Source: Coriobacteriales bacterium
GTDB taxonomy: Bacteria > Actinomycetota > Coriobacteriia > Coriobacteriales > UBA8131
Assembly (NCBI GenBank): GCA_031264075.1
Contig: JAISEO010000099.1
Location: 13,666-77,665 of the forward strand
Length of the DNA stretch: 64,000 nucleotides
Direction of reading: 5' to 3'
The notes below the pieces were generated by a model. It made no database searches and was not told where the DNA came from. It saw only the letters and a list, made by a program, of their open reading frames with translations. Positions within the stretch are counted from its first letter, which is position 1. Every line of letters starts with the position of its first letter. The translations under genes and the position numbers were made by a program. Positions 22,929 to 40,064 of this stretch are shown here, in pieces.

Positions 22929-23078
22929 ATGCAAGAGAAACGGCAATCTATCACAGGCGCGCTCGTGGTGCTGGCCATCGCGGTGCTGCTCATTGTAGGC
23001 GGCATCGTGCAGGGCGACCCGCTCGCTACGCTGAGTAAGGCCATACGCGTGTGCCTTGAGTGCATTGGCATCGGCTGA
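22929..23078 (+). CDS. Small CXXC-motif membrane protein (CD1871A-like)
   Basis: Hand-trimmed 49-aa ORF MQEKRQSITGALVVLAIAVLLIVGGIVQGDPLATLSKAIRVCLECIGIG. It has one TM helix and a C-terminal C-L-E-C. Its stop overlaps the next start (TGATG). Confidence 0.6.
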   Translation: MQEKRQSITGALVVLAIAVLLIVGGIVQGDPLATLSKAIRVCLECIGIG

Positions 23079-23947
23079 TGTCCGTGCTTGCGGGCTTCAA
23101 ACGCCGAATAGTGCAGGTGCTGGCCATGCTGCTGTATAACCTCAACCTGCCGGGCTTTGCCGAGGGCAGCATCTGGCAGGGTGCCAGCAAGGCTGTCTGC
23201 GTACCGGGGCTGAATTGCTACTCCTGCCCGGGTGCTGTGGCATCCTGCCCTATCGGCTCACTCCAGGCAGCGCTTATCGCGAGCGACCACAGGCTTCCAC
23301 TCTATATGGTGGGAACCGTGCTTGCCTTTGGGGCGCTGTTCGGCCGCACGGTCTGCGGATGGCTCTGTCCCTTTGGGCTCATCCAGGAGCTGCTGTACAA
23401 GATACCGCTGCCAAAGATTGGCAAGGGAGCATGGAGCCGCGCCTTGAGTTACGGCAAATACGTCGTGCTGTTTGTCTGTGTAATAGCTATCCCTATGCTG
23501 CTCGCACGCTTTACCGAGGTCGGCTCACCGTTCTTCTGCGCGTGGCTGTGTCCTGCGGGCACCCTGGAGGCGGGGCTTCCACTCGTTGCGGCCAACACGG
23601 CACTGCGCGATCTCATAGGCTTCCAATTCTGGTGGAAACTGGGACTCCTCATAGCGGTGCTCGCGGCCTGTGTGTTCATCTATCGACCGTTTTGTCGCTT
23701 CCTTTGCCCGCTGGGGGCGTTATACTCATTCTTCAACCGTTTTGCGCTGTTACGCTACCGCGTTGACCCTGCGCGCTGTGCATCCTGCGGCACCTGCACC
23801 GCTACCTGCAAGGCTGACGTGCGCCAAGTCAGCGACCGCGAATGCGTGCAGTGCGGCGAATGCGCGAAACACTGCGAACACCAGGCCATCAGTTTTACGC
23901 TTGCCAGCCTGATGAGAAAACAGGAGACACATAATGTCGAAAGCTAA
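23078..23947 (+). CDS. NapH/MauN-like integral membrane 4Fe-4S binding protein
   Basis: CYSCPGAVASCP, three C..LCP.G motifs (CGWLCPFG, CAWLCPAG, CRFLCPLG), and C-terminal CASCGTCTATC and CVQCGECAKHC. An alternative GTG start is at 23060. Confidence 0.85.
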   Translation: MSVLAGFKRRIVQVLAMLLYNLNLPGFAEGSIWQGASKAVCVPGLNCYSCPGAVASCPIGSLQAALIASDHRLPLYMVGTVLAFGALFGRTVCGWLCPFGLIQELLYKIPLPKIGKGAWSRALSYGKYVVLFVCVIAIPMLLARFTEVGSPFFCAWLCPAGTLEAGLPLVAANTALRDLIGFQFWWKLGLLIAVLAACVFIYRPFCRFLCPLGALYSFFNRFALLRYRVDPARCASCGTCTATCKADVRQVSDRECVQCGECAKHCEHQAISFTLASLMRKQETHNVES

Positions 23948-24590
23948 GGTCAAACAGGCTTCCAGAGAAACCTCGCTGAATCCGCTCGCCACTCTGCTGG
24001 CAGGTGCGGTGGTTGTCCTGTTGTTTCTCTCCCTGAGCCTGTCTGCGGGTTGTACGACAAGCCAGTCGCCAGGCGGTGCGAACTCTGCCAGCCAGGGTTC
24101 ATCCCCCGCTACTGACAACAGCGCCGGGGATAACACGACCGACGTGGGCACCTCCGCGCCGGGAGAGCGGGTCAAGGAGGGCGATGCCGCTCCGGACTTC
24201 TTCTTTGCCACGCTCGATGGCGCAACGAGTAGCCTGGCGGAGCTTAAAGGCGAGGTCGTGCTGCTCAACTTCTGGGCATCGTGGTGCCCGCCCTGCGTGG
24301 CCGAAATGCCCGACATCGAGCGGCTGCGCGTAGCCTACCCCAACTTGAAGGTGCTCGCCGTCAGTCTGGACGTGGAAGAGGCAGAGATGCGGGCATTCAT
24401 TGAGGAGCGGGAGTACGGTTTTGCCTGGATTCACGACGTGGGCTATCGGATAGCCAACCTCTACCCCGAAAGCGCCATCCCCTATACCATCATCATCAAC
24501 CGCGAAGGCATCATCACCGCGACCTTCCTCGGGAGCCCACCCGACCCCTTCACTACCTATGAGAGTGCCATTCAGGCGGCTGGTATCTGA
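23934..24590 (+). CDS. TlpA/ResA-family thiol:disulfide oxidoreductase lipoprotein
   Basis: Lipobox LSLSAGC. Thioredoxin active site FWASWCPPCVAEMP. 14-nt overlap with the NapH-like gene. Confidence 0.88.
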   Translation: MSKAKVKQASRETSLNPLATLLAGAVVVLLFLSLSLSAGCTTSQSPGGANSASQGSSPATDNSAGDNTTDVGTSAPGERVKEGDAAPDFFFATLDGATSSLAELKGEVVLLNFWASWCPPCVAEMPDIERLRVAYPNLKVLAVSLDVEEAEMRAFIEEREYGFAWIHDVGYRIANLYPESAIPYTIIINREGIITATFLGSPPDPFTTYESAIQAAGI

Positions 24591-24696: not shown

Positions 24697-25941
24697 TTAC
24701 GCCTGTAGCAACGCGTTCGCTTCCTTTATCAGCGAGAGGCTTTGCTCCAGATAGCGATACATCCGGGCAGAGGCATGGGCGACTTTGCCGCCGGGGATGT
24801 CCGCGCCCGCGTGCTGAAAGCTGTAGTAGTAGCTCGCGTCTGCGTAGTATTCCTTGGCCTGCCTGAGAGTGGCAGGATCGGTAGCACCACCTGCCTCTGC
24901 TTCTACGATACGTGCCTTGAGCCTGTCGAGCCCATCGAGCACCTCAGCTTCCTGAGCGCCCAAGGCAGACTGGCGTGCGCGGACGAACTGACGCATCTCA
25001 TTGGTGGAACCTACGCCCAGCGAAGCATGGCAGCTGAGGCAGTAACGCATGGCCTGCTCGTTGTTCAGGGGAGAGCCGGAGGCGTTGTGGGTTCGGTACT
25101 GCTCCCCCTGCTCGTTTGTCTCATAAGGCATATGACACGACACACAGGTGAGCCCCTGCTCCTGATGCTGGCTGCCTTGAAAGAGCTCTATGTCGGGATG
25201 ACCGAGGTAGTCAACGGTGATACCCAGTTCCTCGTCGGGATACATGGTCATGCCATCTTCTCGCACGGCACGCCGTAGTGCGTCGGCATCGGATCCGTAG
25301 CGATAGGGGTTGAAGTCCTCAAGTCGCGCGTTCTCCTGCAGGGGCAGGAGCTTACGCGGGTAATCACAGGTGGCATTGTGGCACTGTCCACAGGCGGCGG
25401 TCTGCGGATCTACGGTTGTGAGAAACTCGCTCGCATATGTCGTATAGGTGACGAGGGAGGCGTCCGCTCCCTCCGCCGGGATGCCGCTGGCATGGCAGGT
25501 CAGACACGAGAAATAGTCGCCCACCTCGCCCGTGACCTGTGCATAGGGCAGCGTAAAGACCTCCCTGCCATACGTTGCGTACAGCTCGTTGAACTCTGCT
25601 GTCTTGCACGAAAGACAGGGCGCTCCCACCTCCAGCAGCTGGGGATCCTGCTCTACCCGGTTTCTCAGGTTGGCGTGCGAGTGTGCCGTGCCGTCCTCTT
25701 CCATGAGCAGGGCACCTTCTATGAAACTGCGGTATTCATTGGGATACACATCCTTGAACTCGGCGTTGTAGCGCAGAGAAGCGGAAAGCCCACTCGATGC
25801 CGCCTCGCCTGCCTGCCCTGTCGTATCAGCCACGCGCTCTGCCGTATCCACCGAAAACGTGGCGCATCCTGTGAGAAAGACAAGGAATGCAACCGTGGCA
25901 ACGGCAACGGCCCTTTTCCTGCGCTTCATGCTCTGTTTCAT
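24697..25941 (-). CDS. nrfA: Pentahaem cytochrome c nitrite reductase-like protein (NrfA family), lipoprotein
   Basis: Five haem sites: CLSCK (codons at 25617-25603, verified on the DNA), CLTCH, CGQCH, CVSCHMP and CLSCH. Signal/lipobox FLTGC. GAGG RBS. Confidence 0.85.
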   Translation of the reverse strand: MKQSMKRRKRAVAVATVAFLVFLTGCATFSVDTAERVADTTGQAGEAASSGLSASLRYNAEFKDVYPNEYRSFIEGALLMEEDGTAHSHANLRNRVEQDPQLLEVGAPCLSCKTAEFNELYATYGREVFTLPYAQVTGEVGDYFSCLTCHASGIPAEGADASLVTYTTYASEFLTTVDPQTAACGQCHNATCDYPRKLLPLQENARLEDFNPYRYGSDADALRRAVREDGMTMYPDEELGITVDYLGHPDIELFQGSQHQEQGLTCVSCHMPYETNEQGEQYRTHNASGSPLNNEQAMRYCLSCHASLGVGSTNEMRQFVRARQSALGAQEAEVLDGLDRLKARIVEAEAGGATDPATLRQAKEYYADASYYYSFQHAGADIPGGKVAHASARMYRYLEQSLSLIKEANALLQA

Positions 25942-26006
25942 GGCAACCTCAGCCGCTGCAAAGATGCCGACACTTGCCTATCCTGTGTTCCGTTATATCC
26001 CTCATA

Positions 26007-26669
26007 TCAACCGCAACCTGCGGGAGTCGTCATTTCCGTTGCGTACCCCGCGGCCACCCAGCCCGCCAGATCGTCGCTCATGATCCGCAAGAGGGCGAGG
26101 TCATATCCCTGCTCAGCGAGCCTTGCCCAGGCCTCCGCTCCCTCCTGCGGACTGGCGCATACCAGCACCAGGTGCCGCTCTCGGGGTATCTGGTAGAGGC
26201 GGCTCGCAAGCTGGGCCAGCGGCACGGAGAGGGAACCGGGAATCCTGCTCACGTAGAACTGCGCATAGCTCCGCATGTCGATGACCAGGAGCGGTGTTCC
26301 GTCAGGTGCGCCGTCAGTGGCATCAGCGGTGGCAGCGTCTGGCGTGAGCAGTCCGTGCAGGTCCTCAGCGCTTATATTCGCATCCTCAGGATAGGACGCG
26401 TAGCCTGTATCCGTGCTTGGTGACGCTGATTCCAAGCCCGAAGATCCGGTATCTGCGCCATCGTACAAGGGGGCAGAAGGATGAGCAGAGGAGGCTCCGC
26501 TGCTTGCAACCCCCAGAGTTTGCTCACGCTCGTCTCCTTGCAGGGAACAGGCTGTCGCAAACAGTGTCAAGCTGCCGAGAAGGCAGAGCGCAACTGCCGG
26601 AGCTATCAGCAGATACGCAAACACCTGGGTCGTTGCCAGAATACGGAGACTCCTGGGAGCTTTCCACAT
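26007..26669 (-). CDS. Exported rhodanese-domain lipoprotein
   Basis: Lipobox LFATACS. Rhodanese pattern LLVIDMRSYAQFYVSRIPGSLSVP...HLVLVCASPQEG...LAGWVAAGY, with Cys in the active-site loop position. Confidence 0.78.
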   Translation of the reverse strand: MWKAPRSLRILATTQVFAYLLIAPAVALCLLGSLTLFATACSLQGDEREQTLGVASSGASSAHPSAPLYDGADTGSSGLESASPSTDTGYASYPEDANISAEDLHGLLTPDAATADATDGAPDGTPLLVIDMRSYAQFYVSRIPGSLSVPLAQLASRLYQIPRERHLVLVCASPQEGAEAWARLAEQGYDLALLRIMSDDLAGWVAAGYATEMTTPAGCG

Positions 26670-26686
26670 AGTGCATGCCGCATCTA

Positions 26687-27565
26687 CTACGGGCCCTCAA
26701 GCGGATGCATGAGGGCAAAATCGAGAACGGCCACGTCCATGCGCCAGGTCATCAGAATGGGACTGTTGGGGTCAGAGGCCGAAGGCGCGGTGAACACGAC
26801 GGCCCTGCTTCCTTCGTAGCCCCAGTTTGCCCCGATGTTATAGAGAAGACTCGCGTCCCACCCCAGCTCTATCAGGAGCAGCTTCGTAAACTCGGCGTAC
26901 TTGCCGCCTCCACACATGAGGAAGATGGCCCGGTCTTTGGGAAAGAGATCCTCCAGCACCGCGAGGGATTCCTCGTAGTTTGCGGTTGCGCTCAGCAGCG
27001 TCTCGCCCTCCCAGGCCACGGTAAAGAGTGTGTCTCCCGCATACATGCCGGCAATATCACTCTGAGGGAGCGTGCCGAGGTAGGGGTAGGACACAATCCT
27101 GAATCCCGGGAGCGATTGCGTCAGCGCGGGCTTTCCTCCCACTGAGGCAAAGTCTGCGGGATCGTAGAGCATCCGCATATCCCGATAGGCCACGTCCGCC
27201 CTGCCGAGCCACTGGTCTATGGTCTCCTGATTTATCGTGGCGTCCACCGTTGCTCCCTCAGAAGGAGGGGGCAGGGGAGCGAGTGCCTCCGTATCCGGTT
27301 CACTCCCTGTACCTGATTGCTGTTCACTGCCTGATACGCCCGAACTGAGTGAGGGTCCTGCCCCCGTCAGTTCGTTGGGAGAACAGGCCGAGAGAGCACC
27401 AGCTGAGAGAAGGCAGACTGAGAGGACTGCTGCCAGCAGTACGGCGGCAAGTAAGCTGCGTGAAGGCAAGAGATTCTTGATGAGCGATGACCCTCCGACA
27501 AACAATGGCTGAAGCGTGGATGACGACCTTCGCGAACTGCAGGCTGTGGCTTTCATCTTTTTCAT
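26687..27565 (-). CDS. Exported rhodanese-like lipoprotein
   Basis: Lipobox LSACS. The C-terminal domain VAYRDMRM...PGFRIVSYPYL...AIFLMCGGGKYAEF...NIGANWGY fits a rhodanese fold with a C-G-G-G-K loop. ATGA overlap with the psrC-like gene. Confidence 0.65.
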   Translation of the reverse strand: MKKMKATACSSRRSSSTLQPLFVGGSSLIKNLLPSRSLLAAVLLAAVLSVCLLSAGALSACSPNELTGAGPSLSSGVSGSEQQSGTGSEPDTEALAPLPPPSEGATVDATINQETIDQWLGRADVAYRDMRMLYDPADFASVGGKPALTQSLPGFRIVSYPYLGTLPQSDIAGMYAGDTLFTVAWEGETLLSATANYEESLAVLEDLFPKDRAIFLMCGGGKYAEFTKLLLIELGWDASLLYNIGANWGYEGSRAVVFTAPSASDPNSPILMTWRMDVAVLDFALMHPLEGP

Positions 27566-28725
27566 GCCAGCTCCTCGCTTACCAACACGCTCTCGTTCTG
27601 GGCCGCACGGTGAGCAACGATCTGCATACCCACAAGCACGATGAGCAGCACGAAGCCAACATAGCCCACACAGGCACCCAGCTCAAGGAGGCTGGGCATA
27701 TACGTGGAGAGGGTTCCGTCCGCCAGAACGGCCTGACCGGAGAGCAGCGTCATCAGCTTGCCGAGAAAGACACCCACGATGGCAAGCACAGCTGCACAGG
27801 AGATGCTGACACGCGTGCGCCTTATCGCTAACAGGATGAGAGGCACGAGCAACCCAAGTAGTATCTGTCCCCAGAAAAGCGGTGCCAGGCCGCCGACTAC
27901 CATAACGGCGATGGTCGTCGCTTCGATACCGCTCCCCAGATACGCCCCGACGAGCACGTCCACCGCGTTGACCACCAAGGCCGCGGCAAGGAGCGCAAGA
28001 AGCGCATTGACCAGCCGCTTTTCCTCTTGCGGCACGCGTGAGATAAGAAGAATCAGCGCCAGGGCCGCAATCATACCTTCCAGCACAAACAGGATAGGGA
28101 TGCCGATATTCAGGGACCAGTGAGGCGTGCCCACGCTTACCGCCAGCACGCAACCCTCGGTGATGGTGACCGCGAGCCCAAAGACAATTCCGAGACAACC
28201 CAAGGCCCTTTTAGGCTCACGCTTGAACAGGATTATGAGCGAAATAAGTGCTGCCAGCGCGATAAAATAGAAGTCCCATACAAAGAGCGAGTTGAACTGC
28301 GGACTGAAAATGATCGAGAACACGCGCAACGGCGTGCCGGCATCTACGAATACAATCCAGCTCGCCACAAACAGGCAGGCAAACGAGATGATCGAGAGGA
28401 ACTTTCTCTGCGCGTACACGCCCGGGAGTACACCGAAGAGCGAGAGGCCCGTGACTGCCAGCAGGCTGCTCCCAATACCGGCAGAGAGAAAGAACAGATC
28501 GATGTTGAGGCCCCAGGTCACCAGTCCTTCCCCAAATTGTACCGTGGTCATCTGTATGACCCAGGAAGGAATACCCACAATGAGGCACAGTAAGGCGATG
28601 ATGCCTGCCAGCAGCTGCGCGCGTGTGAATCGTGGTCTTTTTGCCTGAGTCACCGCGTCAAGCGGAGCTTTGGTATGTGTTGCCTGCGCTGTGTGAGCCG
28701 TTGCCTTTTCCTGTTGTGTTGTCAT
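27562..28725 (-). CDS. NrfD/PsrC-family polytopic membrane (quinol-interacting) subunit
   Basis: 387-aa highly hydrophobic protein, encoded 12 nt downstream of the Fe-S subunit gene. This is the usual position and size for PsrC/NrfD/DmsC-type anchors. Confidence 0.82.
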   Translation of the reverse strand: MTTQQEKATAHTAQATHTKAPLDAVTQAKRPRFTRAQLLAGIIALLCLIVGIPSWVIQMTTVQFGEGLVTWGLNIDLFFLSAGIGSSLLAVTGLSLFGVLPGVYAQRKFLSIISFACLFVASWIVFVDAGTPLRVFSIIFSPQFNSLFVWDFYFIALAALISLIILFKREPKRALGCLGIVFGLAVTITEGCVLAVSVGTPHWSLNIGIPILFVLEGMIAALALILLISRVPQEEKRLVNALLALLAAALVVNAVDVLVGAYLGSGIEATTIAVMVVGGLAPLFWGQILLGLLVPLILLAIRRTRVSISCAAVLAIVGVFLGKLMTLLSGQAVLADGTLSTYMPSLLELGACVGYVGFVLLIVLVGMQIVAHRAAQNESVLVSEELA

Positions 28726-28737
28726 GAGATCCTCCTT

Positions 28738-29343
28738 CTAGCTTATGTAGCGAACGCTTGGCCCGGTGCCCAGGTCTTCTTGCAGGCCATGCGCCTGATG
28801 TTGCAGTACGAGGTGTGCAATCGTGCTGGTGGGGTCGGCCAGGTCACCAAAAATGCGTGCGCGCGCCGGACAGGCCTTTGAACAGGCTGGTTCCTTGCCC
28901 TCGGCTATCCGATCGTTGCAGAGGATGCATTTCTCGACCGTGCCCGCTTCGTGCAGGAACTCCTTTGTTTCCTCAAAACCGGTCTTAATGCCCAGCTCGG
29001 GGTAATAGCCCTCGGTGGACATCAGGAAGGTTCTCGCATCATAAGGGCAGGCCGCCACGCAATAGCGACATCCCATGCACCGCTCCTTATCCACCGTTAC
29101 TATGCCGTTTTCGGCCACCACGGTAGCACCAACCGGACACACCTCCGCACACGGCGCGTTGGCACAGTGGTTACACATCACCGGCTGGTACTTCATCCTC
29201 GCGTTGGGATAGCTGCCTTCCTCCCAGCGCTCCACATGGTTCCAGAACACACCGGGCGCTGTTCCATGAATCTGTTTGCAGGCAACAGCGCAGGCATTGC
29301 ATCCCACGCATCTGCTCGTGTCTATGACCATTCCGTATCTCAT
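28738..29343 (-). CDS. 4Fe-4S ferredoxin-type electron-transfer subunit (PsrB/NrfC/DmsB family)
   Basis: MRYGMVIDTSRCVGCNACAVACK..., CNHCANAPCAEVCP, CMGCRYCVAACP, CILCNDRIAEGKEPACSKACP. That is four cluster motifs. Confidence 0.92.
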   Translation of the reverse strand: MRYGMVIDTSRCVGCNACAVACKQIHGTAPGVFWNHVERWEEGSYPNARMKYQPVMCNHCANAPCAEVCPVGATVVAENGIVTVDKERCMGCRYCVAACPYDARTFLMSTEGYYPELGIKTGFEETKEFLHEAGTVEKCILCNDRIAEGKEPACSKACPARARIFGDLADPTSTIAHLVLQHQAHGLQEDLGTGPSVRYIS

Positions 29344-29370
29344 GCTCTACCTCACTTTGCTCTTGGGTGT

Positions 29371-32067
29371 CTACGCCCTGGTTACTTTAAGCCGGGGGCT
29401 GGTATCGATGGCACCGGTGATGACATCCACCGCGTCCCAGCCTGTGGACAGAAGGTGGTTATAGGGTATGCTCCGTTTCATCCGGGGATTGATGCCGTGA
29501 CCCACATGCCCGTTGCCGCCGGCAATGCCGAGGCAATCAGGGTGAAGGAGCTCGGTCGTGTGTACGGGGTAGGGGCCAATCCTCACGCCGCCCCTGTTCT
29601 CCACATAGACCTCGTCACCCTCCGCAAGGCCCTTTTTCTCGGCGGTTTGGGTATTAAGACAGATCTTACCAAATTCGGGCCGGGTCTCCATCGCCTCCAC
29701 ACTCCAGGGGTTACCGCTTGGCCCACTCACATCAAAGATCATCTCAGGGGTCTTGTACAGCACCCCGAGCAGGTCGAATTCGCTGGAGGTTTCAACCGCA
29801 TGGGTCGGCCTCCACTGGGGAATGCCGCGGTAGTAGAAATCGATGAGTTCATTGTCCCAACCGGGATGCTCCACGCCTGCCTCTCTCATGCCGGCTCGCA
29901 GTTGGTCTCCGGCCCGCTTGAAGTAGATATTGAAGAGCGGATGCCTCGTCTGGCTGCCCGGCCAGTAGCTGTAATTGAATACCTTGTCGCCGGATACTTC
30001 CTCGTAGGCAAAACCGGTTTCCGCAAAGGTGTCGAGCGTCATCTCGTCGCCATAGCGCGTCCTGAGCCAGCGGTCTATGACTTCCTCCTGCGTGGGCTTG
30101 GTGCCCAGATCAAGCCAGAGATCCGGCCGTATCCCCAGGATGATATTGGTGAGAAAGACCAGCTGGCCGGGGCCGTAGAGCATCTCCATCCGCTCTGCCA
30201 CGTCCATCCACACCTCGTCGATCCAACGGTTATCAAACACCGGGTCGATGATGTGCTTATGACCAAAGGTGCTGTTGACCAGCTGCGGATGGCCGGGCCG
30301 GTACATGTCAAAGTTATAGACAGCCGCCTGTTCGATATAGGTGCTGTCAGGGATCACGAGGTCGGCGAACAGGGCGTGTTCATCGATGTGATAACTGAAG
30401 GTGGCGATGAACTGGTACTCTCGTAGCGCCGCGGACGTGCGCTCGGGGTCGCCAGCCTTGTTGAAGTAGTTTGCCCCCACGCTGATGAACATCTCCGGCT
30501 TGTAATCCGCCTGATACCGCTCAGGCTCAAGCAGGGCATCGTTGACCCTGAAGGCGTTGTCAAAGCCATAGGGCACAAACTCCTGCGCCTGAAACATCTC
30601 ATGAGGAAACTGCCACGGCCACATCCTCGTATGAAAGTTCTCCGGTATAACGACGCCGTCCGCGTCGGGTGTGAGGGCGCCCGGGTCAGAGGCAACCACA
30701 TTACCGCCCGGCACCGCCACGGCCCCTATGAGCTGGTTGACGAGCATGGCCGTCCAGAAGGCCACGTGACCATCGCGGTGATTGGTCATGCCGCGGCTGA
30801 GAAACACGCAGGCCGGCCTGAGTGGCAGCTCATTGCCATTGATGACAACCGTTGAGCCAATGAGCGCATTGTCGAGCAGATCGCGCGCCTGGGTGCGGAT
30901 GTTGGCCGCGGGAACCGTGGTAATCTCCTCTGCCCACTCGGGCGTATAGTCCGTTGTACCCTGCTTGAGCAGATGGAAGCTGGGCGAAACCTTCTCGCCC
31001 TGCACCGTGTAGACACCCTCAAGGGCAAAGTCATTGATCGTGGGATCGTCGAAGGCCTTGGGCGCAGCGTCAACGGAGTCCCAGATGAGCGGCTTGCCCG
31101 CTTCGTTTCTCAGATAGTCGCTCTGCGCCTCATTGATGAGGTAGGAGCCCGTTGTGCGGTTCTTGAGAAACCACGCGTCGTAACGGTCTTCCTCATGCAG
31201 GATAACGTTGATGAGGGCAAGCAGATAGGCCAGGTCGGTTCCCGGTCTGATGGGCTGCCATTCGCCCAGCTCAGCCTCAGGCGAACAGCGCGGATCCACC
31301 ACCACCATGCGGGTGCCATTCTTCAGGGCATCTACGATATAGCTTGTAGCTCCGTCGCCCGGGGCAATGTTGGGAGCGGAGGTTCCTCCCACGGCAAGGA
31401 TGTACTTTCCGTAGGCAAAGTCGGGATACTGAGCAAAACCGCCCTGCACCAGAGAGTTGCTCAGATGCACCGAGCACAGAGCGCCCGTGATCATGCCGGT
31501 ATTGGGGGTGCCAAAGGTGGCCGGCACGATGCCGTACATGCCCGTGATGAGATTGTAAAACACGGGAAATCCATGCATCCACACGAGCTTGCGGGAATCG
31601 TCCGCACGCAGCGCCGCCATCTTTTCCGCGAGCATCCCAATGGCCTCATCCCAGCCTATCTCCACCCAGCCGGGGTCAACGTCTAGCCCCTTCTCTGGGT
31701 TTGTGCGAATCATCGGTGTCTTGACCCTATAAGGGTTGTAGACAAAGGCCGGGGCCGCCTGTCCTCGCACACAGCACTTGCCCTCGTTCCACGGGCCGTT
31801 GGGATTACCCTCTACCTCGGTAAGCACGCCGTCCTCAACGGTATAGTTGAGGCTGCACCGGGCAAAGTGACACGAGTGGCACAGTCCCGGCGTCACTGTT
31901 TTGGTGGGGGCCTCGGCGGCAAGCGCCTCCCTGAACATGCCTTCTGTTGCCTGAAGCAAGGGGAGAAAGCCAGCTTCTGTTGCTGCTCCCGCTACTCCCG
32001 CTGCTACGGCTGTTCCGGCAAGCACGCCCGCAGTCGTCTTAACAAAACTCCTTCTGCTGATGTCCAT
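29371..32067 (-). CDS. Tat-exported molybdopterin (Mo/W-bisPGD) oxidoreductase catalytic subunit, Psr/Phs/Ttr-like
   Basis: Twin-arginine leader MDISRRSFVKTTAGVLAG.... N-terminal Fe-S Cys group CHSCHFARC...KCC. 898 aa, with the domain order expected for the DMSO reductase superfamily. Confidence 0.9.
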   Translation of the reverse strand: MDISRRSFVKTTAGVLAGTAVAAGVAGAATEAGFLPLLQATEGMFREALAAEAPTKTVTPGLCHSCHFARCSLNYTVEDGVLTEVEGNPNGPWNEGKCCVRGQAAPAFVYNPYRVKTPMIRTNPEKGLDVDPGWVEIGWDEAIGMLAEKMAALRADDSRKLVWMHGFPVFYNLITGMYGIVPATFGTPNTGMITGALCSVHLSNSLVQGGFAQYPDFAYGKYILAVGGTSAPNIAPGDGATSYIVDALKNGTRMVVVDPRCSPEAELGEWQPIRPGTDLAYLLALINVILHEEDRYDAWFLKNRTTGSYLINEAQSDYLRNEAGKPLIWDSVDAAPKAFDDPTINDFALEGVYTVQGEKVSPSFHLLKQGTTDYTPEWAEEITTVPAANIRTQARDLLDNALIGSTVVINGNELPLRPACVFLSRGMTNHRDGHVAFWTAMLVNQLIGAVAVPGGNVVASDPGALTPDADGVVIPENFHTRMWPWQFPHEMFQAQEFVPYGFDNAFRVNDALLEPERYQADYKPEMFISVGANYFNKAGDPERTSAALREYQFIATFSYHIDEHALFADLVIPDSTYIEQAAVYNFDMYRPGHPQLVNSTFGHKHIIDPVFDNRWIDEVWMDVAERMEMLYGPGQLVFLTNIILGIRPDLWLDLGTKPTQEEVIDRWLRTRYGDEMTLDTFAETGFAYEEVSGDKVFNYSYWPGSQTRHPLFNIYFKRAGDQLRAGMREAGVEHPGWDNELIDFYYRGIPQWRPTHAVETSSEFDLLGVLYKTPEMIFDVSGPSGNPWSVEAMETRPEFGKICLNTQTAEKKGLAEGDEVYVENRGGVRIGPYPVHTTELLHPDCLGIAGGNGHVGHGINPRMKRSIPYNHLLSTGWDAVDVITGAIDTSPRLKVTRA

Positions 32068-32176
32068 ACTTCCTTCTCCTTATCCTTCGATCTTGTCTTT
32101 TGGTCTTGGCTCTCTGGTGTAGTTCACTCACATCCTTCGCTTGCACGCACAGCCAATCGAGTGCGCGGGCATAGCT

Positions 32177-33154
32177 TCAGTCAGGTCCCTTGTTACCCGC
32201 CCTGGTAGTTTCTTGAACGGGTTCGTGTGTGGATTCGTGTGTGGATTCGCATACAGCCTCGTGGGAAAGTGCCTGGGCAGATTCCCGTATTGATTCGCAT
32301 GCGATTTCGTGGGAGAGTAGCCGTGCAATCTCCTGCGCGACACAGCCCCGTACGAGCAGCAAGTGTCCTCGGAAGAAATCTGACTGGATCAAGGGGAGGG
32401 TCACTTCAACATAGGACGGTACCCACCTGCCGATATGCTCCGATACAAACTCCCTCTGCAAAGTGAGCAGCATGTGTCTGTCTGGCTCGTCGTCTGCCTC
32501 CTGCGTTATGAGCCTTTGGTAGTACCCAAGCTCTATGCCCACGTAATCTGGCCGCTCCCCCGCGGCAACCGCGAGTCCTGAACTCTGGTAGGCTCGGGTG
32601 AGCGACAGGAGTACGGCTGGCGCGGGCTGCCCGGAGAGCCATTCTGCCTCGTAGGGAGGGGTCGGGCCGGTTGCGCTCACACCACGGTAAAGCCGGGTGC
32701 GTTCAACGGCAAGCTGTGTGAGGGCGGTCTGGTGCTCTGCCTCAGCGGGCAAGCAATCTGTCGGCGACTCCTGAGAGCCCTCCCGCCTGCAGTGCTCGAC
32801 GATGTCGGTGAGAACGTCTGTCATGAGCGCAAGCCCGCGGCTGCAACTGTGCGAGTTGCCCAGGCATTCCTGTGTCTGCCGTAGAAGCTCCCGGTAGGCG
32901 CTGAGCTGATCCTCCTGCAGGCAGCTCTGTGTGGGAGCGTGCATGAAGGGCCAGACGGCGCAGCCGAGAAGCAAGGCCCTCAAGGAGCAAGGCATACGAG
33001 TAACAGGTACGCCGGTTACACTGGCCTTTGAGGATGCCGCATTGTGGGCGAGCAGGTCGCCAGACGCCGAAGCACCAGCTAGATGAGAGTTGGCGATGTG
33101 AGTGTTGGCCATTGTCTTATGTTTGGTAGGCTTTGCGGGTTTTGCAGGTTTCAT
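32177..33154 (-). CDS. TorD/DmsD-family redox-enzyme maturation chaperone-like protein with repetitive Cys/His tail
   Basis: Core ...RLYRGVSATGPTPPYEAEW...ERPDYVGIELGYYQRL...FFRGHLLL resembles TorD-family chaperones. The position upstream of the Tat molybdoenzyme fits. The tail is LSHEIACESIRES...LSHEAVCESTHESTHE. Confidence 0.6.
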   Translation of the reverse strand: MKPAKPAKPTKHKTMANTHIANSHLAGASASGDLLAHNAASSKASVTGVPVTRMPCSLRALLLGCAVWPFMHAPTQSCLQEDQLSAYRELLRQTQECLGNSHSCSRGLALMTDVLTDIVEHCRREGSQESPTDCLPAEAEHQTALTQLAVERTRLYRGVSATGPTPPYEAEWLSGQPAPAVLLSLTRAYQSSGLAVAAGERPDYVGIELGYYQRLITQEADDEPDRHMLLTLQREFVSEHIGRWVPSYVEVTLPLIQSDFFRGHLLLVRGCVAQEIARLLSHEIACESIRESAQALSHEAVCESTHESTHEPVQETTRAGNKGPD

Positions 33155-33236
33155 TAGCTTTTCCTTCTATTTTATGTAGACCAGTCACTATATTAAGGGC
33201 AACAAGGCTGCGCCTGTGGTTCGCGATAGCATCTTA

Positions 33237-33818
33237 TCAGTTGACCGCCAGCATCCCGGCTACCGCGGTTCTGGCCCTTTCCAAATACTTGGGATCCTCG
33301 AAGATAATGGCCATGTTAATGCTCCCGTCAATGAGTGTTTCAATGGCTATGGCCAGTTGGCGCGCTTGCGCCCGGTCATACCCTCCCTCAAGCAGCTTCT
33401 GCTCATAGAGCGAGATCCACATTTCAAGTGCCTGGACAGACGCCTGTCTGAGTTCCTCGCTTACCTGTACTGTTTCAAGCGCTAACAGCGTCACCGAAAA
33501 ATGCCCCTGCTCGCTGAATATGCTTTTCTTGAGCTTGCGGAGATGATTATCGAAGGCTTCAGCAGCGTTTTTGTGCTGCGCCATGCTTATCCTAATGTTT
33601 TCGGTGACGAGCAGCTCTGCCCTTCGCAGTACTTCCAGAGCAATCTCTTCCTTGCCTCCGGGAAAGTGATAGTAGAGTGACCCCTTGGGAGTGTGACTGT
33701 CTTCAATGATCTGATTGACACCGACCGCGTGATAGCCATATTTTTGAAACAGCACGAATGCCGTATCAACGATTCGACTCTTTGTCTCTGCTCCATTGCT
33801 CATTACGTCCTCCTGCAA
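33237..33818 (-). CDS. TetR/AcrR family transcriptional regulator
   Basis: TKSRIVDTAFVLFQKYGYHAVGVNQIIEDSHTPKGSLYYHFPGGKEEI is the TetR HTH signature. Confidence 0.9.
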   Translation of the reverse strand: MQEDVMSNGAETKSRIVDTAFVLFQKYGYHAVGVNQIIEDSHTPKGSLYYHFPGGKEEIALEVLRRAELLVTENIRISMAQHKNAAEAFDNHLRKLKKSIFSEQGHFSVTLLALETVQVSEELRQASVQALEMWISLYEQKLLEGGYDRAQARQLAIAIETLIDGSINMAIIFEDPKYLERARTAVAGMLAVN

Positions 33819-38086: not shown

Positions 38087-39781
38087 CTACTTGCCCTGTG
38101 CCTCGGCGACGTGCTTGGCCACCATGCGGCCGGAGTTCAAGGCCCAGGAACTCTGCTCGCCGGGAGCCGAGGTAAAGTCGTAGATATCGCCGCAGAGCGC
38201 TCCCGTGTCGCAGCCGGCAACGTACAACCCCTCGATAACGTCTCCGTTGTCGTCCACGGCCAGGATGTCCTCGTTGATGCGCATGCCGCCCACCGTTGTG
38301 TAGAAGCCATCGTCGCACTCAAAGGCGTAGAAGGGGCCCTCGGTCAACGCTTTCATAAAGCTTGCGTTCTTCTGAAAGTCCGCATCCGCGCCGGCAGAGC
38401 ACAGCTGGTTGTAGCGCTCGACCGTCGCCTTGAGGTTGACCGCGCCGGTAGCGCTTGCCAGCTCGTCCAGGGTCTCAGCAACGTGGACGCGTTCGTTACC
38501 GGCAGCTATCTGCGCCTCCAGCATTGCCTTGAACTCTCCCAGCGGGCCGGAGCCGCCCGCGCCGTTGTCATTGCCCTGATAGCCGCCTTCAGCCGTGAGC
38601 CGGTCTATCTCGGACTGATTGCTCAGCACAAACATCCGCGGAATATCGCGAATGGCGCTGCCAACCTCCATCTGATTGGCGCCGCCCTCATTCATGAAGC
38701 GGTTGCCGTTCTGGTCGACCCAGAGCACCGGCTGGTAGACACCGTTATAGAGGTTGTCGCCCCAGGTGGCACCCGGCAGATGCGGGCCGTAGAACATGAT
38801 GGTGCCGTCGCCACGGGCCCAGGCCGCTCCGGCCTTGCGCGCCATGTAGACCCCATCGCCGTCGCGTCCGTCATAACCGGAGGAGATGACGCGGTCTGGG
38901 TTCACCTTGCCCAGCTCTCGCAGGAAGTCCGGATTACTGCCCCAACCACCGGTACACAGCAGCACGGCGGGAGCCTCAAACTTGATGACCTTGCCCGAAT
39001 CGTCCGTGGCCAGCACACCCGCGACCCTGCCGTTTTCCACCACCAACTCCTGTGCGGGAGTGCTGTAGCGGATGTCCAGACCGCGCTTCTCCACCTCAGC
39101 GACGAAGGCCTCGATGACGGTCTTGCCGCCCAGGGTGCCATCCTCACTGCCCATACTCATGCCCTCCGCGCCATAGGCCAGAGCCATGCTGAAGGGCATC
39201 TCCACACCATACGGGGCATCTCCAAAGAAGCCACCCATGTCCATGAACTCGACGCCGACGCTCTCGCACCACGTCACGGTCTCGGGTATTTCCTCAAGGT
39301 AATTCTTCAACAGCAACGTCGAGGGAATGTAGTGGTTATAGACCTGGATGGACTTGATGACATCGTTGAGGTCCACATGCTTGCCGGCATCGGTGGCAAA
39401 GTGGCTGTTGGGAGCAAAGGAAACCCCCGCAAAGGCAAAGGTGCCGCCGGCGACCTGTTTCTTCTCCAACAGGATGGTATTGAGTCCGAGGTCGTCGGCC
39501 TGTAGTAGTGCTGCCATGCCACAGCCACCGGCACCGCAGACGATGAAGTCGGCCTGGACGGTCTCTTCCGGTTCGCCGACCGCTGGGCGGTTCATGTAGC
39601 TGGGCTGGGAGGCATCGGTGCCCGTGGTAGCCGCTTCTCCGCTGCTGCCTGTGGCCGCCGGCTCGTTTGCGCTCTGCGGTGAGCAGCCCGCAAGCGCGCC
39701 CGCGCCGCTCGCACCAATGACAAGCGCGCCCGCGCCGATGCCGGCTCCCTTTAGAAAGTTCCTTCTCGATAGTTCGCTCAT
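38087..39781 (-). CDS. Tat-exported FAD-dependent flavoprotein reductase (fumarate reductase / urocanate reductase / KstD-like), lipoprotein-type leader
   Basis: MSELSRRNFLKGAGIGAGALVIGASGAGALAGCS leader. FAD site VCGAGGCGMAAL. C-terminal ...GLYVAGCDTG.... Start chosen at 39781 (GAGAGGA RBS); the ORF is open to 39814. Confidence 0.88.
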   Translation of the reverse strand: MSELSRRNFLKGAGIGAGALVIGASGAGALAGCSPQSANEPAATGSSGEAATTGTDASQPSYMNRPAVGEPEETVQADFIVCGAGGCGMAALLQADDLGLNTILLEKKQVAGGTFAFAGVSFAPNSHFATDAGKHVDLNDVIKSIQVYNHYIPSTLLLKNYLEEIPETVTWCESVGVEFMDMGGFFGDAPYGVEMPFSMALAYGAEGMSMGSEDGTLGGKTVIEAFVAEVEKRGLDIRYSTPAQELVVENGRVAGVLATDDSGKVIKFEAPAVLLCTGGWGSNPDFLRELGKVNPDRVISSGYDGRDGDGVYMARKAGAAWARGDGTIMFYGPHLPGATWGDNLYNGVYQPVLWVDQNGNRFMNEGGANQMEVGSAIRDIPRMFVLSNQSEIDRLTAEGGYQGNDNGAGGSGPLGEFKAMLEAQIAAGNERVHVAETLDELASATGAVNLKATVERYNQLCSAGADADFQKNASFMKALTEGPFYAFECDDGFYTTVGGMRINEDILAVDDNGDVIEGLYVAGCDTGALCGDIYDFTSAPGEQSSWALNSGRMVAKHVAEAQGK

Positions 39782-40007
39782 GCTAATTCCTCTCTGTGTT
39801 GTTTTCCCTTTCATGGTGTTAGCTTGTAATCCCTACTCCTCTCGGTTCCTCGTGTCCTGCCTGTGTTTAGGATTGAGGGCAGGTTCAGGGCAAAGAAGCA
39901 TGACTCTTTCCGTCATGCTCTCTCCGTCCTTCAACGATACGTGCAACACGGCATTCTGTCTGTCATCGAAAGGCCTCATTCCTTCAATGCCCTGTCGTCC
40001 AAAGGTA

Positions 40008-40028
40008 TGATTTCCGGGTGATTTCCGG
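40008..40028 (+). promoter_or_regulatory. Tandem direct repeat in the divergent flavoprotein/LuxR intergenic region (candidate regulator site)
   Basis: TGATTTCCGG occurs at 40008-40017 and again at 40019-40028 (11-bp period). This is about 40-90 nt upstream of the candidate LuxR starts. Confidence 0.35.
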
Positions 40029-40064
40029 ATAATCAGCCAAAACCGACAGTACGGGAAGAGGGGC

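What the first reader, a model, noticed from the sequence alone, without database searches (positions are those of the whole stretch)
24697..33154. Seven-gene operon joining a Tat Psr/Phs-type molybdoenzyme, two exported rhodaneses and a CxxCK pentahaem NrfA, with no NrfH
Seen in sequence: seven co-directional minus-strand genes lie close together, with gaps of 109, 27, 12, -4 (ATGA overlap), 17 and 65 nt. In order they are:
- a TorD-like chaperone;
- an 898-aa Mo-bisPGD subunit with an RRSFVK Tat leader;
- a four-cluster Fe-S subunit;
- an NrfD/PsrC membrane subunit;
- a lipoprotein rhodanese;
- a second lipoprotein rhodanese;
- a lipoprotein NrfA with CLSCK plus four CxxCH sites.
No NapC/NrfH-type tetrahaem or NrfB gene is in the window.

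Established knowledge:
- NrfA receives electrons either from NrfH or from NrfB-NrfCD.
- NrfC and NrfD are homologues of PsrB and PsrC.
- Wolinella polysulfide reductase works with the periplasmic rhodanese Sud.
- Thiosulfate reductase releases sulfite.
- NrfA enzymes can reduce sulfite as well as nitrite.

Inference: one quinol-oxidising PsrBC/NrfCD-type module may serve two terminal reductases. The operon could then encode a complete exported pathway from thiosulfate or polysulfide through sulfite to sulfide. Alternatively it could be a combined sulfur/nitrite respiratory unit. I do not know of a described operon with this composition.
Basis: partly seen in the sequence, partly recalled or inferred. 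Interest (0 to 1): 0.7.

Follow-up and report, generated by a model that had tools for sequence, protein, structure and literature searches.

The report
Molybdoenzyme operon with rhodanese-linked NrfA-like cytochrome
An uncultured gut-type actinobacterium has joined a membrane-anchored molybdenum reductase to two sulfur-carrier-like proteins and an unusual five-haem relative of nitrite reductase that lacks its normal electron donor, which suggests an undescribed way of respiring a sulfur compound but is so far supported only by sequence comparison.

Summary
Seven minus-strand genes (33154..24697) have exactly the stated gaps, and no NrfH/NrfB-type cytochrome lies in the 64 kb window. The source is a Coriobacteriales MAG.

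The operon joins two units that also occur apart:
- **Mo cassette:** TetR-TorD-MoA-FeS-NrfD. Its closest homologues (47-65% id) lack rhodanese and NrfA. MoA is Psr/Arr-like, not a PhsA/PsrA equivalog, and not acetylene-hydratase/dehydroxylase-like.
- **Rhodanese plus NrfA-fold cytochrome module:** it is restricted to one small clade of uncultured Coriobacteriales.

In that clade the cytochrome keeps CxxCK, the catalytic His and probably the Arg. It replaces the Glu-Tyr/Ca2+ motif with a loop carrying an invariant Cys. A rhodanese-like lipoprotein with an invariant C-terminal Cys accompanies it in 6 of 7 contexts, against 0 of 10 other Coriobacteriia-type NrfA loci. FeS/NrfD modules lie nearby in 4 of 7 contexts, against 0 of 10. 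Some sister-clade loci carry an NrfH-like cytochrome instead.

Best reading (inferred): the cytochrome draws menaquinol electrons through the operon's FeS/NrfD pair and reduces a sulfur species rather than acting as a standard nitrite ammonifier. The thiosulfate-sulfite-sulfide pathway is not. This is a new variant of known kinds.

The parts
33237..33818 (-). TetR-family regulator (LmrA/YxaF-like C-terminal domain), 82 nt upstream of the operon. It is probably the regulator of the Mo cassette.
   Evidence: Pfam TetR_N + TetR_C_13_2. A 45%-identical TetR sits in the same position upstream of the orthologous Mo cassette in L093.
33169..33196 (-). Promoter-like site (TTAATA-16-TAAAAT) just upstream of the first gene.
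   Evidence: Consensus scan. It is the only minus-strand hit between the TetR gene and the end of the operon. This is weak evidence.
32177..33154 (-). TorD/NarJ-type chaperone for the Tat-exported Mo subunit (325 aa with an N-terminal extension; JGI aa).
   Evidence: PF02613, E 1.8e-16. Start-codon variants.
29371..32067 (-). Catalytic Mo-bisPGD subunit, 898 aa. It has a Tat leader RRSFVK, an FS0 Cys motif and a Cys Mo ligand. It belongs to the Psr/Phs/Arr-like branch. Substrate unknown.
   Evidence: Pfam and NCBIfam scans. Best PDB matches are Thermus PsrA 2vpw (2.6e-40), ArrA (3e-31) and Ahy (only 3e-13). Closest homologues carry only generic names.
28738..29343 (-). Four-[4Fe-4S] electron-transfer subunit (PsrB/NrfC/DsrO type). 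It has no signal peptide of its own, so it is presumably co-exported with MoA.
   Evidence: Fer4_11. NCBIfam scores: DsrO 187, ArrB 186, NrfC 151 bits. The N-terminus MRYGMVIDTSRCVGCNAC is visible.
27562..28725 (-). NrfD/PsrC-type integral membrane quinol-interacting subunit.
   Evidence: PF03916, E 3.9e-12. It is 57% identical to the NrfD of the L093 cassette.
26687..27565 (-). ORF5: exported lipoprotein with a divergent rhodanese fold, two insertions and an invariant Cys in the loop MCGGGKY. Its start overlaps the nrfD stop (ATGA).
   Evidence: No Pfam hit. The family alignment shows the invariant Cys and lipoboxes, and some members have Tat RR motifs. AF2 plus Foldseek hits are all rhodaneses. 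hhalign to the ORF6 family gives 92%. SD GAGGAG.
26007..26669 (-). ORF6: rhodanese-like lipoprotein of a subfamily defined by an invariant Cys at or next to the C-terminus. The classical active-site Cys is present here but is not conserved in the subfamily.
   Evidence: PF00581, E 2.4e-8. Alignment of the NrfA-linked homologues. HMM found in 6 of 7 clade contexts and in none of 13 control loci.
24697..25941 (-). NrfA-fold pentahaem lipoprotein (CLSCK + 4 CxxCH). R93 and H248 align with the catalytic Arg and His. The Glu-Tyr/Ca2+ motif is replaced by CHNAT-C192-DY.
   Evidence: AF2 pLDDT 87, and the best folds are NrfA from G. lovleyi and E. coli with TM 0.65-0.70.

Best explanation
**What it is.** The seven genes are one operon built from two modules that also exist separately.

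**Module 1.** This is an ordinary TetR-regulated, Tat-exported, menaquinol-linked Mo-bisPGD reductase: chaperone, A, B and C subunits. It belongs to the Psr/Phs/Arr-like branch, and its substrate cannot be named.

**Module 2.** This is specific to a small clade of uncultured Coriobacteriales. It consists of one or two rhodanese-fold lipoproteins plus a lipoprotein pentahaem cytochrome with the NrfA fold.

**How it probably works (inferred).**
- The cytochrome has no NrfH or NrfB. It most likely receives menaquinol electrons through the co-encoded FeS/NrfD pair on the outer face of the membrane. NrfA does this through NrfCD (via NrfB), and MccA does it through MccCD.
- It is strictly coupled to a rhodanese-like protein that carries an invariant C-terminal Cys. 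It has exchanged the Glu-Tyr/Ca2+ element of the distal pocket for a loop with an invariant Cys. For these reasons it most likely reduces a sulfur species to sulfide: either sulfite or a protein-bound or free persulfide/polysulfide handed over by the rhodaneses. It is less likely to work as a standard nitrite ammonifier.

**Shown versus inferred.** Gene content, modularity, motif changes and co-occurrence are shown. Co-transcription, the electron path and the substrate are inferred.
For: **Operon structure.** Gaps of -4 to 109 nt, an SD before ORF5, and no internal promoter-like or terminator-like sites.

**Modularity.**
- The Mo cassette with the same TetR occurs in L093 (MoA 65%, FeS 66%, NrfD 57% id) and in L094/L095, without rhodanese or NrfA.
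- The rhodanese-NrfA pair occurs in L001, L002, L088 and L090 without a Mo-bisPGD enzyme.

**Electron path.**
- No second multihaem ORF lies in the window, and the only other ones in the clade's loci are the tri-haem SUOX-domain lipoproteins of L002 and L088; none is NrfH/NrfB-like.
- NrfD genes are found in 4 of 7 clade contexts against 0 of 10 other Coriobacteriia-type NrfA loci (about 150 kb).
- There are two independent fusions behind different Mo cassettes, in the window and in L007.
- L090 has a Tat-signal FeS + NrfD pair, and its homologues in L088 head an operon whose next gene is a haem-c/SUOX lipoprotein.
- The sister clade has an NrfH-like tetrahaem gene directly after nrfA (L005, L009).
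- The FeS/NrfD dimeric module is known to feed separate periplasmic proteins (PMC6303296).

**Sulfur link.**
- The ORF6-type rhodanese is present in 6 of 7 clade contexts against 0 of 10 (Fisher p = 5.7e-4).
- Its C-terminal Cys is invariant, while the classical active-site Cys is not.
- C192 is one of only five residues that are invariant in the clade and rare outside it.
- The clade is monophyletic.
- The Ca2+/Tyr motif is absent.
- In L002 and L088 the neighbours are SUOX-family Mo enzymes.
- Precedent: the pentahaem polysulfide reductase MccSep (ExtKL) uses Cys/Sec at a haem and is encoded with the rhodanese-like lipoprotein ExtH (PMC13510729; PMC6148476).
Against: - There are no expression or activity data.
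- The operon's FeS subunit has no Tat signal of its own, so it should be locked to MoA. Whether it can also dock a cytochrome is unknown.
- Three clade contexts (L001, L002, L092) show no NrfD within the sequence available. The contexts are few and phylogenetically non-independent.
- An nrfH could lie elsewhere in the genome; only 64 kb of a 97 kb contig was visible.
- The catalytic His and probably the Arg are retained, and a Tyr/Trp lies two residues after the Cys. Nitrite reduction therefore remains chemically plausible.
- The whole Coriobacteriia-type NrfA group, including the NrfH-linked members, lacks the canonical VEYY motif. That loss is not specific to the rhodanese-linked clade.
- The position of C192 relative to haem 1 could not be measured, because no model coordinates were available.
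Confidence: 0.45

Rival explanations
1. Ordinary nitrite ammonification or detoxification. The cytochrome is a functional NrfA nitrite reductase of a divergent Gram-positive type. It merely sits behind a Mo-enzyme operon and takes electrons from the FeS/NrfD pair or from an NrfH encoded elsewhere. The rhodaneses are accessory or unrelated.
For: - Pfam Cytochrom_C552, E 3.5e-36, and a CxxCK first haem site.
- NrfA fold with TM 0.65-0.70.
- His264 and Arg106 equivalents are retained.
- It meets the loose published criteria of five haem sites plus a His between sites 3 and 4, and Coriobacteriia appear in the published NrfA phylogeny (PMC10716430).
- NCBI annotates it as NrfA.
Against: - It scores 71.6 bits against the 595-bit cut-off of the NrfA equivalog model.
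- It has neither the Lys-x-Gln-His Ca2+ motif nor the x-x-Arg-His variant; the sequence is YLGH.
- The canonical Glu-Tyr is replaced.
- This reading does not explain the near-obligate pairing with a Cys-tailed rhodanese-like lipoprotein or the clade-specific Cys.
Confidence: 0.2
2. The Mo enzyme is a Phs/Psr-type thiosulfate or polysulfide reductase working with Sud-like rhodaneses. The sulfite it releases is reduced to sulfide by the NrfA-like cytochrome, so the operon encodes a complete exported route.
For: - ABC architecture with a Cys-ligated Mo, and best matches to Thermus PsrA and the PhsA model.
- Two exported rhodanese-fold proteins.
- From my own knowledge: NrfA enzymes bind and slowly reduce sulfite, and a W. 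succinogenes Y218F variant was crystallised (PDB 3bng is listed).
Against: - MoA is far below the PhsA equivalog threshold (165 against 694 bits), and the match covers mainly the N-terminal third.
- Its closest homologues function without rhodanese or NrfA.
- The rhodanese-cytochrome pair occurs with SUOX-type and AOR-type enzymes or alone. The link is therefore not to a particular Mo enzyme or product.
Confidence: 0.12
3. An Srr/Psr-like six-gene unit. The rhodaneses serve the Mo enzyme by delivering polysulfide or selenite, as Sud does for Psr or SrrE/F for Srr. The cytochrome is then a later add-on with a separate role, such as detoxification or acting as an electron sink.
For: - Genes 1-6 have the same composition as the selenite reductase operon srrABCDEF of Bacillus selenitireducens: A, B, C, a chaperone and two rhodanese-domain proteins (PMC12481199).
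- ORF5 directly follows and overlaps nrfD.
- An ORF5-type gene closes the SUOX operon in L088.
Against: - The ORF6-type rhodanese tracks the cytochrome, not the Mo cassette: 6 of 7 against 0 of 3 cassette homologues.
- In L007 the rhodanese sits between the chaperone and the cytochrome, and in L088 and L090 it immediately precedes the cytochrome gene.
Confidence: 0.13
4. Fortuitous juxtaposition. Two unrelated units lie head to tail. The cytochrome module has its own weak promoter and draws electrons from a donor encoded elsewhere.
For: - Both modules are found separately.
- A 65-nt gap precedes the cytochrome gene.
- The promoter scan uses a sigma-70 consensus that may not fit this phylum.
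Against: - ATGA overlap between nrfD and ORF5, with a strong SD.
- An independent second fusion in L007.
- Enrichment of NrfD modules near the clade.
- No terminator between the modules.
Confidence: 0.1

Closest known systems
NrfA with NrfBCD (E. coli) or NrfHA (Wolinella, Desulfovibrio)
   Same: - NrfA fold.
- Five haem sites with a Lys-ligating CxxCK first site.
- Arg and His equivalents retained.
- An NrfC/NrfD-type FeS + membrane pair encoded beside it.
   Different: - No NrfB and no NrfH.
- Lipoprotein anchoring.
- The Glu-Tyr/Ca2+ element is replaced by a loop with an invariant Cys.
- The FeS protein lacks its own Tat signal and belongs to a Mo enzyme.
- It is obligately paired with a rhodanese-like protein.
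- It scores far below the NrfA equivalog cut-off.
MccABCD sulfite reductase of Wolinella succinogenes (and SirACD of Shewanella)
   Same: A catalytic multihaem cytochrome fed by an FeS (NrfC/PsrB-type) + NrfD/PsrC-type quinol dehydrogenase without a NapC/NrfH cytochrome. Its substrate is a sulfur compound.
   Different: - MccA is an octahaem Cu-containing enzyme of a different fold subgroup (Foldseek TM about 0.3).
- There is no Mo enzyme and no rhodanese in that system.
- MccC has its own Tat signal (own knowledge).
SrrABCDEF respiratory selenite reductase operon of Bacillus selenitireducens MLS10
   Same: - A Gram-positive operon with a Tat Mo-bisPGD A subunit, a 4-cluster B subunit, a membrane C subunit, a chaperone and two rhodanese-domain proteins. 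This is the same composition as genes 1-6 here.
   Different: - No multihaem cytochrome.
- SrrA is about 80 kDa against 898 aa here, and SrrE/F are larger rhodanese proteins.
- Orthology was not tested.
- Here the ORF6-type rhodanese tracks the cytochrome rather than the Mo enzyme.
PsrABC polysulfide reductase with the periplasmic sulfurtransferase Sud (Wolinella)
   Same: ABC architecture, a Cys-ligated Mo, and an exported rhodanese-type sulfur carrier.
   Different: - MoA is only distantly related to solved PsrA, with partial matches only.
- Sud uses the classical active-site Cys, which is not conserved in the ORF6 subfamily.
MccSep (ExtKL) pentahaem polysulfide reductase with rhodanese-like lipoprotein ExtH of Geobacter sulfurreducens
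   Same: - A five-haem cytochrome that reduces a sulfur substrate by thiol/selenol chemistry at a haem.
- It is encoded with a rhodanese-like lipoprotein.
- Its electron donor is not identified.
   Different: - It is unrelated in sequence and fold: five CxxCH sites, His/Cys-ligated haem 2, Sec325 and an Ig-like C-terminal domain.
- It is an analogy only, not homology.

Membership tests
NrfA (ammonia-forming cytochrome c nitrite reductase) | Five haem c sites, the first usually CxxCK | tested here: met
   CLSCK plus CLTCH, CGQCH, CVSCH and CLSCH.
NrfA (ammonia-forming cytochrome c nitrite reductase) | Catalytic His between haem sites 3 and 4 (E. coli His264) | tested here: met
   H248 in YLGHPD aligns with KAQHPE in both MAFFT and hhalign. 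This is the criterion stated in PMC10716430.
NrfA (ammonia-forming cytochrome c nitrite reductase) | Catalytic Arg (E. coli Arg106) | tested here: met
   hhalign aligns the invariant NLR93 with TLR106, and both lie 16 residues before the CxxCK. MAFFT alone had placed a gap there, so this rests on the profile alignment.
NrfA (ammonia-forming cytochrome c nitrite reductase) | Glu215-Tyr216 motif after haem 3 (CHVEY), and either the Lys-x-Gln-His Ca2+ site or its x-x-Arg-His substitute | tested here: not met
   The sequence is CHNAT followed by a 6-residue insertion CDYPRK, and YLGH replaces LKAQH/YIRH. A Tyr/Trp two residues after the Cys might substitute. This could not be tested without coordinates.
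NrfA (ammonia-forming cytochrome c nitrite reductase) | Score at or above the curated equivalog cut-off | tested here: not met
   NF008339 scores 71.6 bits against a 595 cut-off. TIGR03152 scores 46.6 against 692.5.
NrfA (ammonia-forming cytochrome c nitrite reductase) | NrfA three-dimensional fold | tested here: met
   AF2 model with pLDDT 87.1. The Foldseek top hits are 6v0a, 1gu6, 8bcx and 1fs7, with TM 0.65-0.70.
NrfA (ammonia-forming cytochrome c nitrite reductase) | Dedicated redox partner NrfH, or NrfB with NrfCD | tested here: not met
   There is no other multihaem ORF in the 64 kb window, and none that is NrfH/NrfB-like in the clade's other loci, whose only other multihaem ORFs are the tri-haem SUOX-domain lipoproteins of L002 and L088. 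An FeS + NrfD pair is present, but it belongs to the Mo enzyme. The rest of the genome was not visible.
NrfA (ammonia-forming cytochrome c nitrite reductase) | Nitrite to ammonium activity | not testable with these tools
   This needs the purified protein or physiology.
Psr/Phs-type polysulfide/thiosulfate reductase | Tat-exported Mo-bisPGD A subunit with FS0 and a Cys Mo ligand, a four-cluster B subunit, and an NrfD/PsrC membrane subunit | tested here: met
   Pfam and NCBIfam scans. The Cys in GALCSV aligns with the Mo-ligand Cys region of Thermus PsrA.
Psr/Phs-type polysulfide/thiosulfate reductase | Equivalog-level similarity of the A subunit to PhsA/PsrA | tested here: not met
   The PhsA model scores 165.5 bits against a 694 cut-off, and its best stretch covers residues 1-309 only. 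The PsrA 2vpw match comes in three partial stretches.
Acetylene-hydratase-like Mo enzymes (the branch that, from my knowledge, holds the Eggerthellaceae catechol dehydroxylases) | Closest solved relative is acetylene hydratase | tested here: not met
   MoA scores 3.2e-13 against Ahy and 2.6e-40 against PsrA. The window's other Mo enzyme (58086-60743) scores 2.2e-79 against Ahy.
Srr-type selenite reductase operon | A, B, C, chaperone and two rhodanese-domain genes in one operon | tested here: met
   The composition matches the description in PMC12481199. Sequence orthology to SrrA-F was not tested because no reference sequences were held.
Rhodanese / sulfurtransferase | Rhodanese fold | tested here: met
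   ORF6: PF00581, E 2.4e-8. ORF5: the Foldseek top 50 are all rhodaneses, and hhalign gives 92%.
Rhodanese / sulfurtransferase | Conserved catalytic Cys in the active-site loop (CX5R-type) | tested here: inconclusive
   ORF5 family: the Cys at that position is invariant, but the loop is CGGGGYA with no Arg. ORF6 subfamily: a Cys is present in the window copy but is replaced by S/F/T/A in most homologues, while a C-terminal Cys is invariant instead.
MccSep (ExtKL) polysulfide reductase | Five CxxCH sites, a His/Cys-ligated haem, a Sec/Cys site and an Ig-like C-terminal domain | tested here: not met
   The protein has CxxCK and an all-helical NrfA fold with no Ig-like domain. MccSep features are taken from PMC13510729.

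The most novel reading that the evidence does not exclude
The clade may represent a new extracytoplasmic sulfur reductase that evolved from NrfA. A rhodanese-like lipoprotein would carry the substrate as a persulfide or polysulfide on its invariant C-terminal Cys, acting as a swinging arm in the manner of SoxY. It would insert that arm into the distal pocket of the Lys-ligated haem, where the clade-specific Cys192 performs thiol-persulfide exchange and the haem chain delivers electrons. The enzyme has dispensed with NrfH and instead plugs into whichever FeS/NrfD quinol dehydrogenase is co-encoded, sharing it with a Mo-bisPGD, SUOX-type or AOR-type enzyme. This would be convergent with the MccSep/ExtH polysulfide reductase of Geobacter, and it would be a case of one quinol module serving two terminal reductases.
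Probability: 0.2. Interest if true: 0.8.

Novelty: new variant of a known kind. Interest (0 to 1): 0.6.

Why it matters
**If the inference holds, three things follow.**
- 'nrfA' hits in Coriobacteriia-type genomes from metagenomes would be mis-scored as nitrate-ammonification potential. A subset would instead belong to sulfur metabolism.
- It would add a second, independently evolved example of a five-haem cytochrome using thiol chemistry with a rhodanese partner to reduce sulfur, after MccSep/ExtH.
- It would give a concrete, testable case of a PsrBC/NrfCD-type quinol module shared between a molybdoenzyme and a multihaem reductase. That bears on how modular anaerobic respiratory chains are assembled in Gram-positive bacteria, which lack a periplasm.

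**If it does not hold,** the locus is still a useful warning. Operon adjacency to a Psr-like enzyme does not define a pathway, because both modules are mobile.

Tried and rejected
- **Arg loss (rejected).** A plain MAFFT alignment suggested that the catalytic Arg was lost. Profile-profile alignment showed that the invariant R93 matches Arg106 with identical spacing. I withdrew that claim.
- **ORF5 not a rhodanese (rejected).** Pfam and NCBIfam found nothing, but the fold search and hhalign show a divergent rhodanese.
- **Homology to MccSep (rejected).** It has a different fold and different haem motifs. I kept it only as an analogy.
- **Mo subunit as a catechol-dehydroxylase/Ahy-type enzyme (rejected).**
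- **Genome collection scan.** The scan of species-representative genomes returned no member of the Cys clade; the best hit was 39% identical. The clade is so far seen only in metagenome assemblies.
- **ORF6 representative search.** A search of 1.8 billion representatives with ORF6 returned mostly generic multi-rhodanese proteins and added little.
- **ORF5-family context elsewhere.** The context in other bacteria (P0199) showed no respiratory genes.
- **RNA features.** Rfam and tRNA scans of the window were empty.
- **Literature.** Searches found no description of this gene combination. The library is incomplete, so this is not proof of absence.

Full report
**Observation**

Pfam and NCBIfam give the following calls:
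- a TorD/NarJ-type chaperone;
- an 898-aa Mo-bisPGD subunit with MDISRRSFVK and an FS0 motif;
- a four-cluster Fer4_11 protein;
- an NrfD protein;
- a protein with no hit (ORF5);
- a rhodanese (ORF6);
- a Cytochrom_C552 protein with CLSCK and four CxxCH.

A six-frame scan shows this is the only multihaem ORF in 64 kb. No NrfH, NapC or NrfB is in the window.

Exact-sequence look-up places the locus on a 97-kb contig of a Coriobacteriales MAG, with proteins MDR1089239-45. Public gene calls shorten ORF5 and ORF6 and so delete their lipoprotein signals. Conserved lipoboxes in both families and a GAGGAG Shine-Dalgarno before the ATG at 27565 favour the long forms, and hence the ATGA overlap with nrfD.

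On the minus strand, promoter-like sites occur only upstream of the TorD and TetR genes. No convincing internal terminator was found. That scan is a weak sigma-70 consensus test.

**ORF5**

ORF5 belongs to a widespread, well-conserved family of about 225-aa lipoproteins. Members are 50-57% identical in Treponema, Clostridia and Spirochaetales. Some have Tat RR motifs, and none has a Pfam domain.
- An AlphaFold model (pLDDT 81.8) matches only rhodaneses among its 50 best PDB hits, with weak E-values.
- A profile-profile comparison with the ORF6 family gives 92% probability and aligns the invariant Cys of MCGGGGYAG with the classical rhodanese active-site position.

**The cytochrome**

It has the NrfA fold. 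The AF2 model has pLDDT 87, and the best matches are G. lovleyi and E. coli NrfA at TM 0.65-0.70. MccA reaches only about 0.3.

I verified my recalled E. coli NrfA sequence against PDB 1gu6; it is 100% identical over residues 27-478. I then aligned it, canonical NrfAs taken from fetched loci, and the 39 database relatives.

MAFFT suggested the catalytic Arg was missing. hhalign (100% probability) instead aligns the clade-invariant NLR93 with TLR106, and both lie 16 residues before the CxxCK. I take the Arg as retained.
- His264 is retained, as H248.
- The canonical CHVEY (Glu215 Ca2+ ligand, Tyr216) is replaced by CHNAT followed by a six-residue insertion. The insertion begins with an invariant Cys (C192) and carries a Tyr/Trp two residues later.
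- The Lys-x-Gln-His Ca2+ motif is YLGH. It matches neither the Ca2+-dependent form nor the Arg-containing Ca2+-independent form described in PMC10716430.
- The protein scores 71.6 bits against the 595-bit NrfA equivalog cut-off.

A neighbour-joining tree puts the window protein with 17 relatives (45-83% id) in one clade that always has the Cys. The wider Coriobacteriia-type group also lacks VEYY but has Gly or Ser at that position. C192 is one of only five residues invariant in the clade and rare outside it.

**Comparative contexts**

Seven independent contexts of the Cys clade were read:

| Context | Gene arrangement |
|---|---|
| Window | TorD-Mo-FeS-NrfD-ORF5-Rhd-NrfA |
| L007 | Mo-FeS-NrfD-TorD-Rhd-NrfA; MoA only 34% identical to the window's |
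| L088 | Rhd-NrfA, 3.5 kb from an operon of FeS-NrfD, a trihaem-SUOX lipoprotein, a second SUOX protein, a Mo-co dimer fragment and an ORF5-type gene |
| L090 | Rhd-NrfA, convergent on Tat-FeS, NrfD, Tat-FeS and an AOR-family enzyme |
| L001 | Rhd, ORF5-type, NrfA, convergent on FeS, AOR and FdhD |
| L002 | NrfA divergent from Rhd, trihaem-SUOX and SUOX |
| L092 | NrfA alone on a 5.5-kb contig |

HMM scans give these counts:
- The ORF6-type rhodanese is found in 6 of 7 clade contexts. It is found in 0 of 10 other Coriobacteriia-type NrfA loci and 0 of 3 Mo-cassette homologue loci (Fisher p = 5.7e-4).
- NrfD genes are found in 4 of 7 clade contexts against 0 of 10, which gives p of about 0.015 by my own hand calculation (counts).

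These samples are small and not phylogenetically independent.

In the sister group, L005/L006 and L009 have an NrfH-like tetrahaem gene directly after nrfA and no rhodanese.

The NrfA-linked rhodaneses share an invariant lipobox Cys and an invariant Cys at or next to the C-terminus. The classical active-site Cys is not conserved.

**The Mo cassette**

The best solved relatives of MoA are Thermus PsrA (2.6e-40, partial stretches) and ArrA (3e-31). Acetylene hydratase scores only 3e-13. The window's other Mo enzyme at 58086-60743 is strongly Ahy-like, at 2.2e-79. L007's Mo subunit is likewise Arr/Psr-like.

No curated family threshold is approached; PhsA scores 165 against 694 bits. Several hundred database relatives carry only generic names.

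The closest homologues sit in TorD-Mo-FeS-NrfD cassettes with no rhodanese or cytochrome:

| Homologue | Identity to MoA | Locus |
|---|---|---|
| P0056 | 65% | L093 |
| P0059 | 55% | L094 |
| P0072 | 47% | L095 |

L093 even has a 45%-identical TetR in the same upstream position. The Mo cassette and the rhodanese-cytochrome pair are therefore separable modules that are joined here.

**Interpretation**

The recurrent proximity to FeS/NrfD modules, the two independent in-operon fusions and the absence of NrfH support one reading. The cytochrome probably takes menaquinol electrons through a co-encoded FeS/NrfD pair. This role is known for that dimeric module in the NrfCD and MccCD systems (PMC6303296).

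A caveat applies. The FeS subunits in the window and in L007 have no Tat signal of their own and should be bound to MoA. The L090 module does have its own Tat signal.

Several lines point to sulfur rather than nitrogen chemistry:
- the tight pairing with a Cys-tailed rhodanese-like lipoprotein;
- the clade-specific pocket Cys;
- SUOX-family neighbours;
- the precedent of the pentahaem polysulfide reductase MccSep (ExtKL), which uses Cys/Sec at a haem and is encoded with the rhodanese-like lipoprotein ExtH (PMC13510729; PMC6148476).

The retained His and Arg mean nitrite or sulfite reduction cannot be excluded.

Genes 1-6 have the same composition as the srrABCDEF selenite reductase operon (PMC12481199). 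That is the closest described arrangement. Adding an NrfA-fold cytochrome is what is new.

I found no description of this combination in the searchable literature.

**Verdict**

- The shared-quinol-module inference is plausible and partly supported.
- The specific thiosulfate-sulfite-sulfide pathway is not supported.
- The locus is best filed as a new variant: an NrfA-derived, rhodanese-coupled cytochrome plugged into a Psr-like cassette.
- The substrate is unknown, and the locus is of moderate to high interest.

Noticed in passing
window 23060-24590 (+): A NapH/MauN-type membrane polyferredoxin (two Fer4_5 domains plus Fer4) overlaps by 14 nt a ResA-like lipoprotein thiol:disulfide oxidoreductase (WCPPC). 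The pair converges on the end of the nrfA-like gene. NapH-like homologues also lie within a few kb of nrfA in five unrelated loci (L037, L050, L061, L035, L009). It may be a reductant route for cytochrome c maturation, or an alternative electron entry.
   Followed up: partly
window 58086-62360 (-): A second Mo-bisPGD enzyme (885 aa) is strongly acetylene-hydratase-like (2e7z, 2.2e-79) and has a LuxR-type regulator upstream. From my knowledge this is the type associated with Eggerthellaceae catechol dehydroxylases. No FeS or NrfD partner was seen beside it.
   Followed up: partly
L088 1148-6515 (-) and L002 5859-9366 (-): A lipoprotein fuses a tri-haem c domain to a sulfite-oxidase-family Mo domain. 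In L088 it sits in an operon with FeS, NrfD, a second SUOX-like protein, a Mo-co dimerisation fragment and an ORF5-type rhodanese. A quinol-linked, haem-containing SUOX complex of this kind is not one I know to be described.
   Followed up: partly
L090 2525-7331 (-) and L001 12155-15047 (-): An aldehyde:ferredoxin-oxidoreductase-family enzyme has no signal peptide but is preceded by an FeS protein with a Tat signal (RRNFLKG). In L090 a further Tat-FeS + NrfD pair also precedes it. This suggests an exported, quinol-linked AOR-type enzyme.
   Followed up: no
window 26687-27565 (-) and its family (P0175-P0293): The ORF5 family is a widespread, highly conserved set of about 225-aa lipoproteins (50-57% id across Coriobacteriales, Treponema and Clostridia). 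It has an invariant MCGGGGYAG loop and no Pfam model. In P0199 contexts it is followed by a 177-193-aa protein with no Pfam hit, and there are no respiratory genes nearby.
   Followed up: partly
window 26007-27565 (-): Public annotations (NCBI, JGI) start ORF5 at an internal GTG (186 aa) and shorten ORF6 to 142 aa. This removes both lipoprotein signal peptides, so the proteins would be mis-predicted as cytoplasmic.
   Followed up: yes
window 38087-41432: A Tat-signal FAD_binding_2 flavoprotein (575 aa, minus strand) lies next to a LuxR-type regulator (40065-41432, plus strand). This looks like another exported reductase unit typical of this bacterial group.
   Followed up: no
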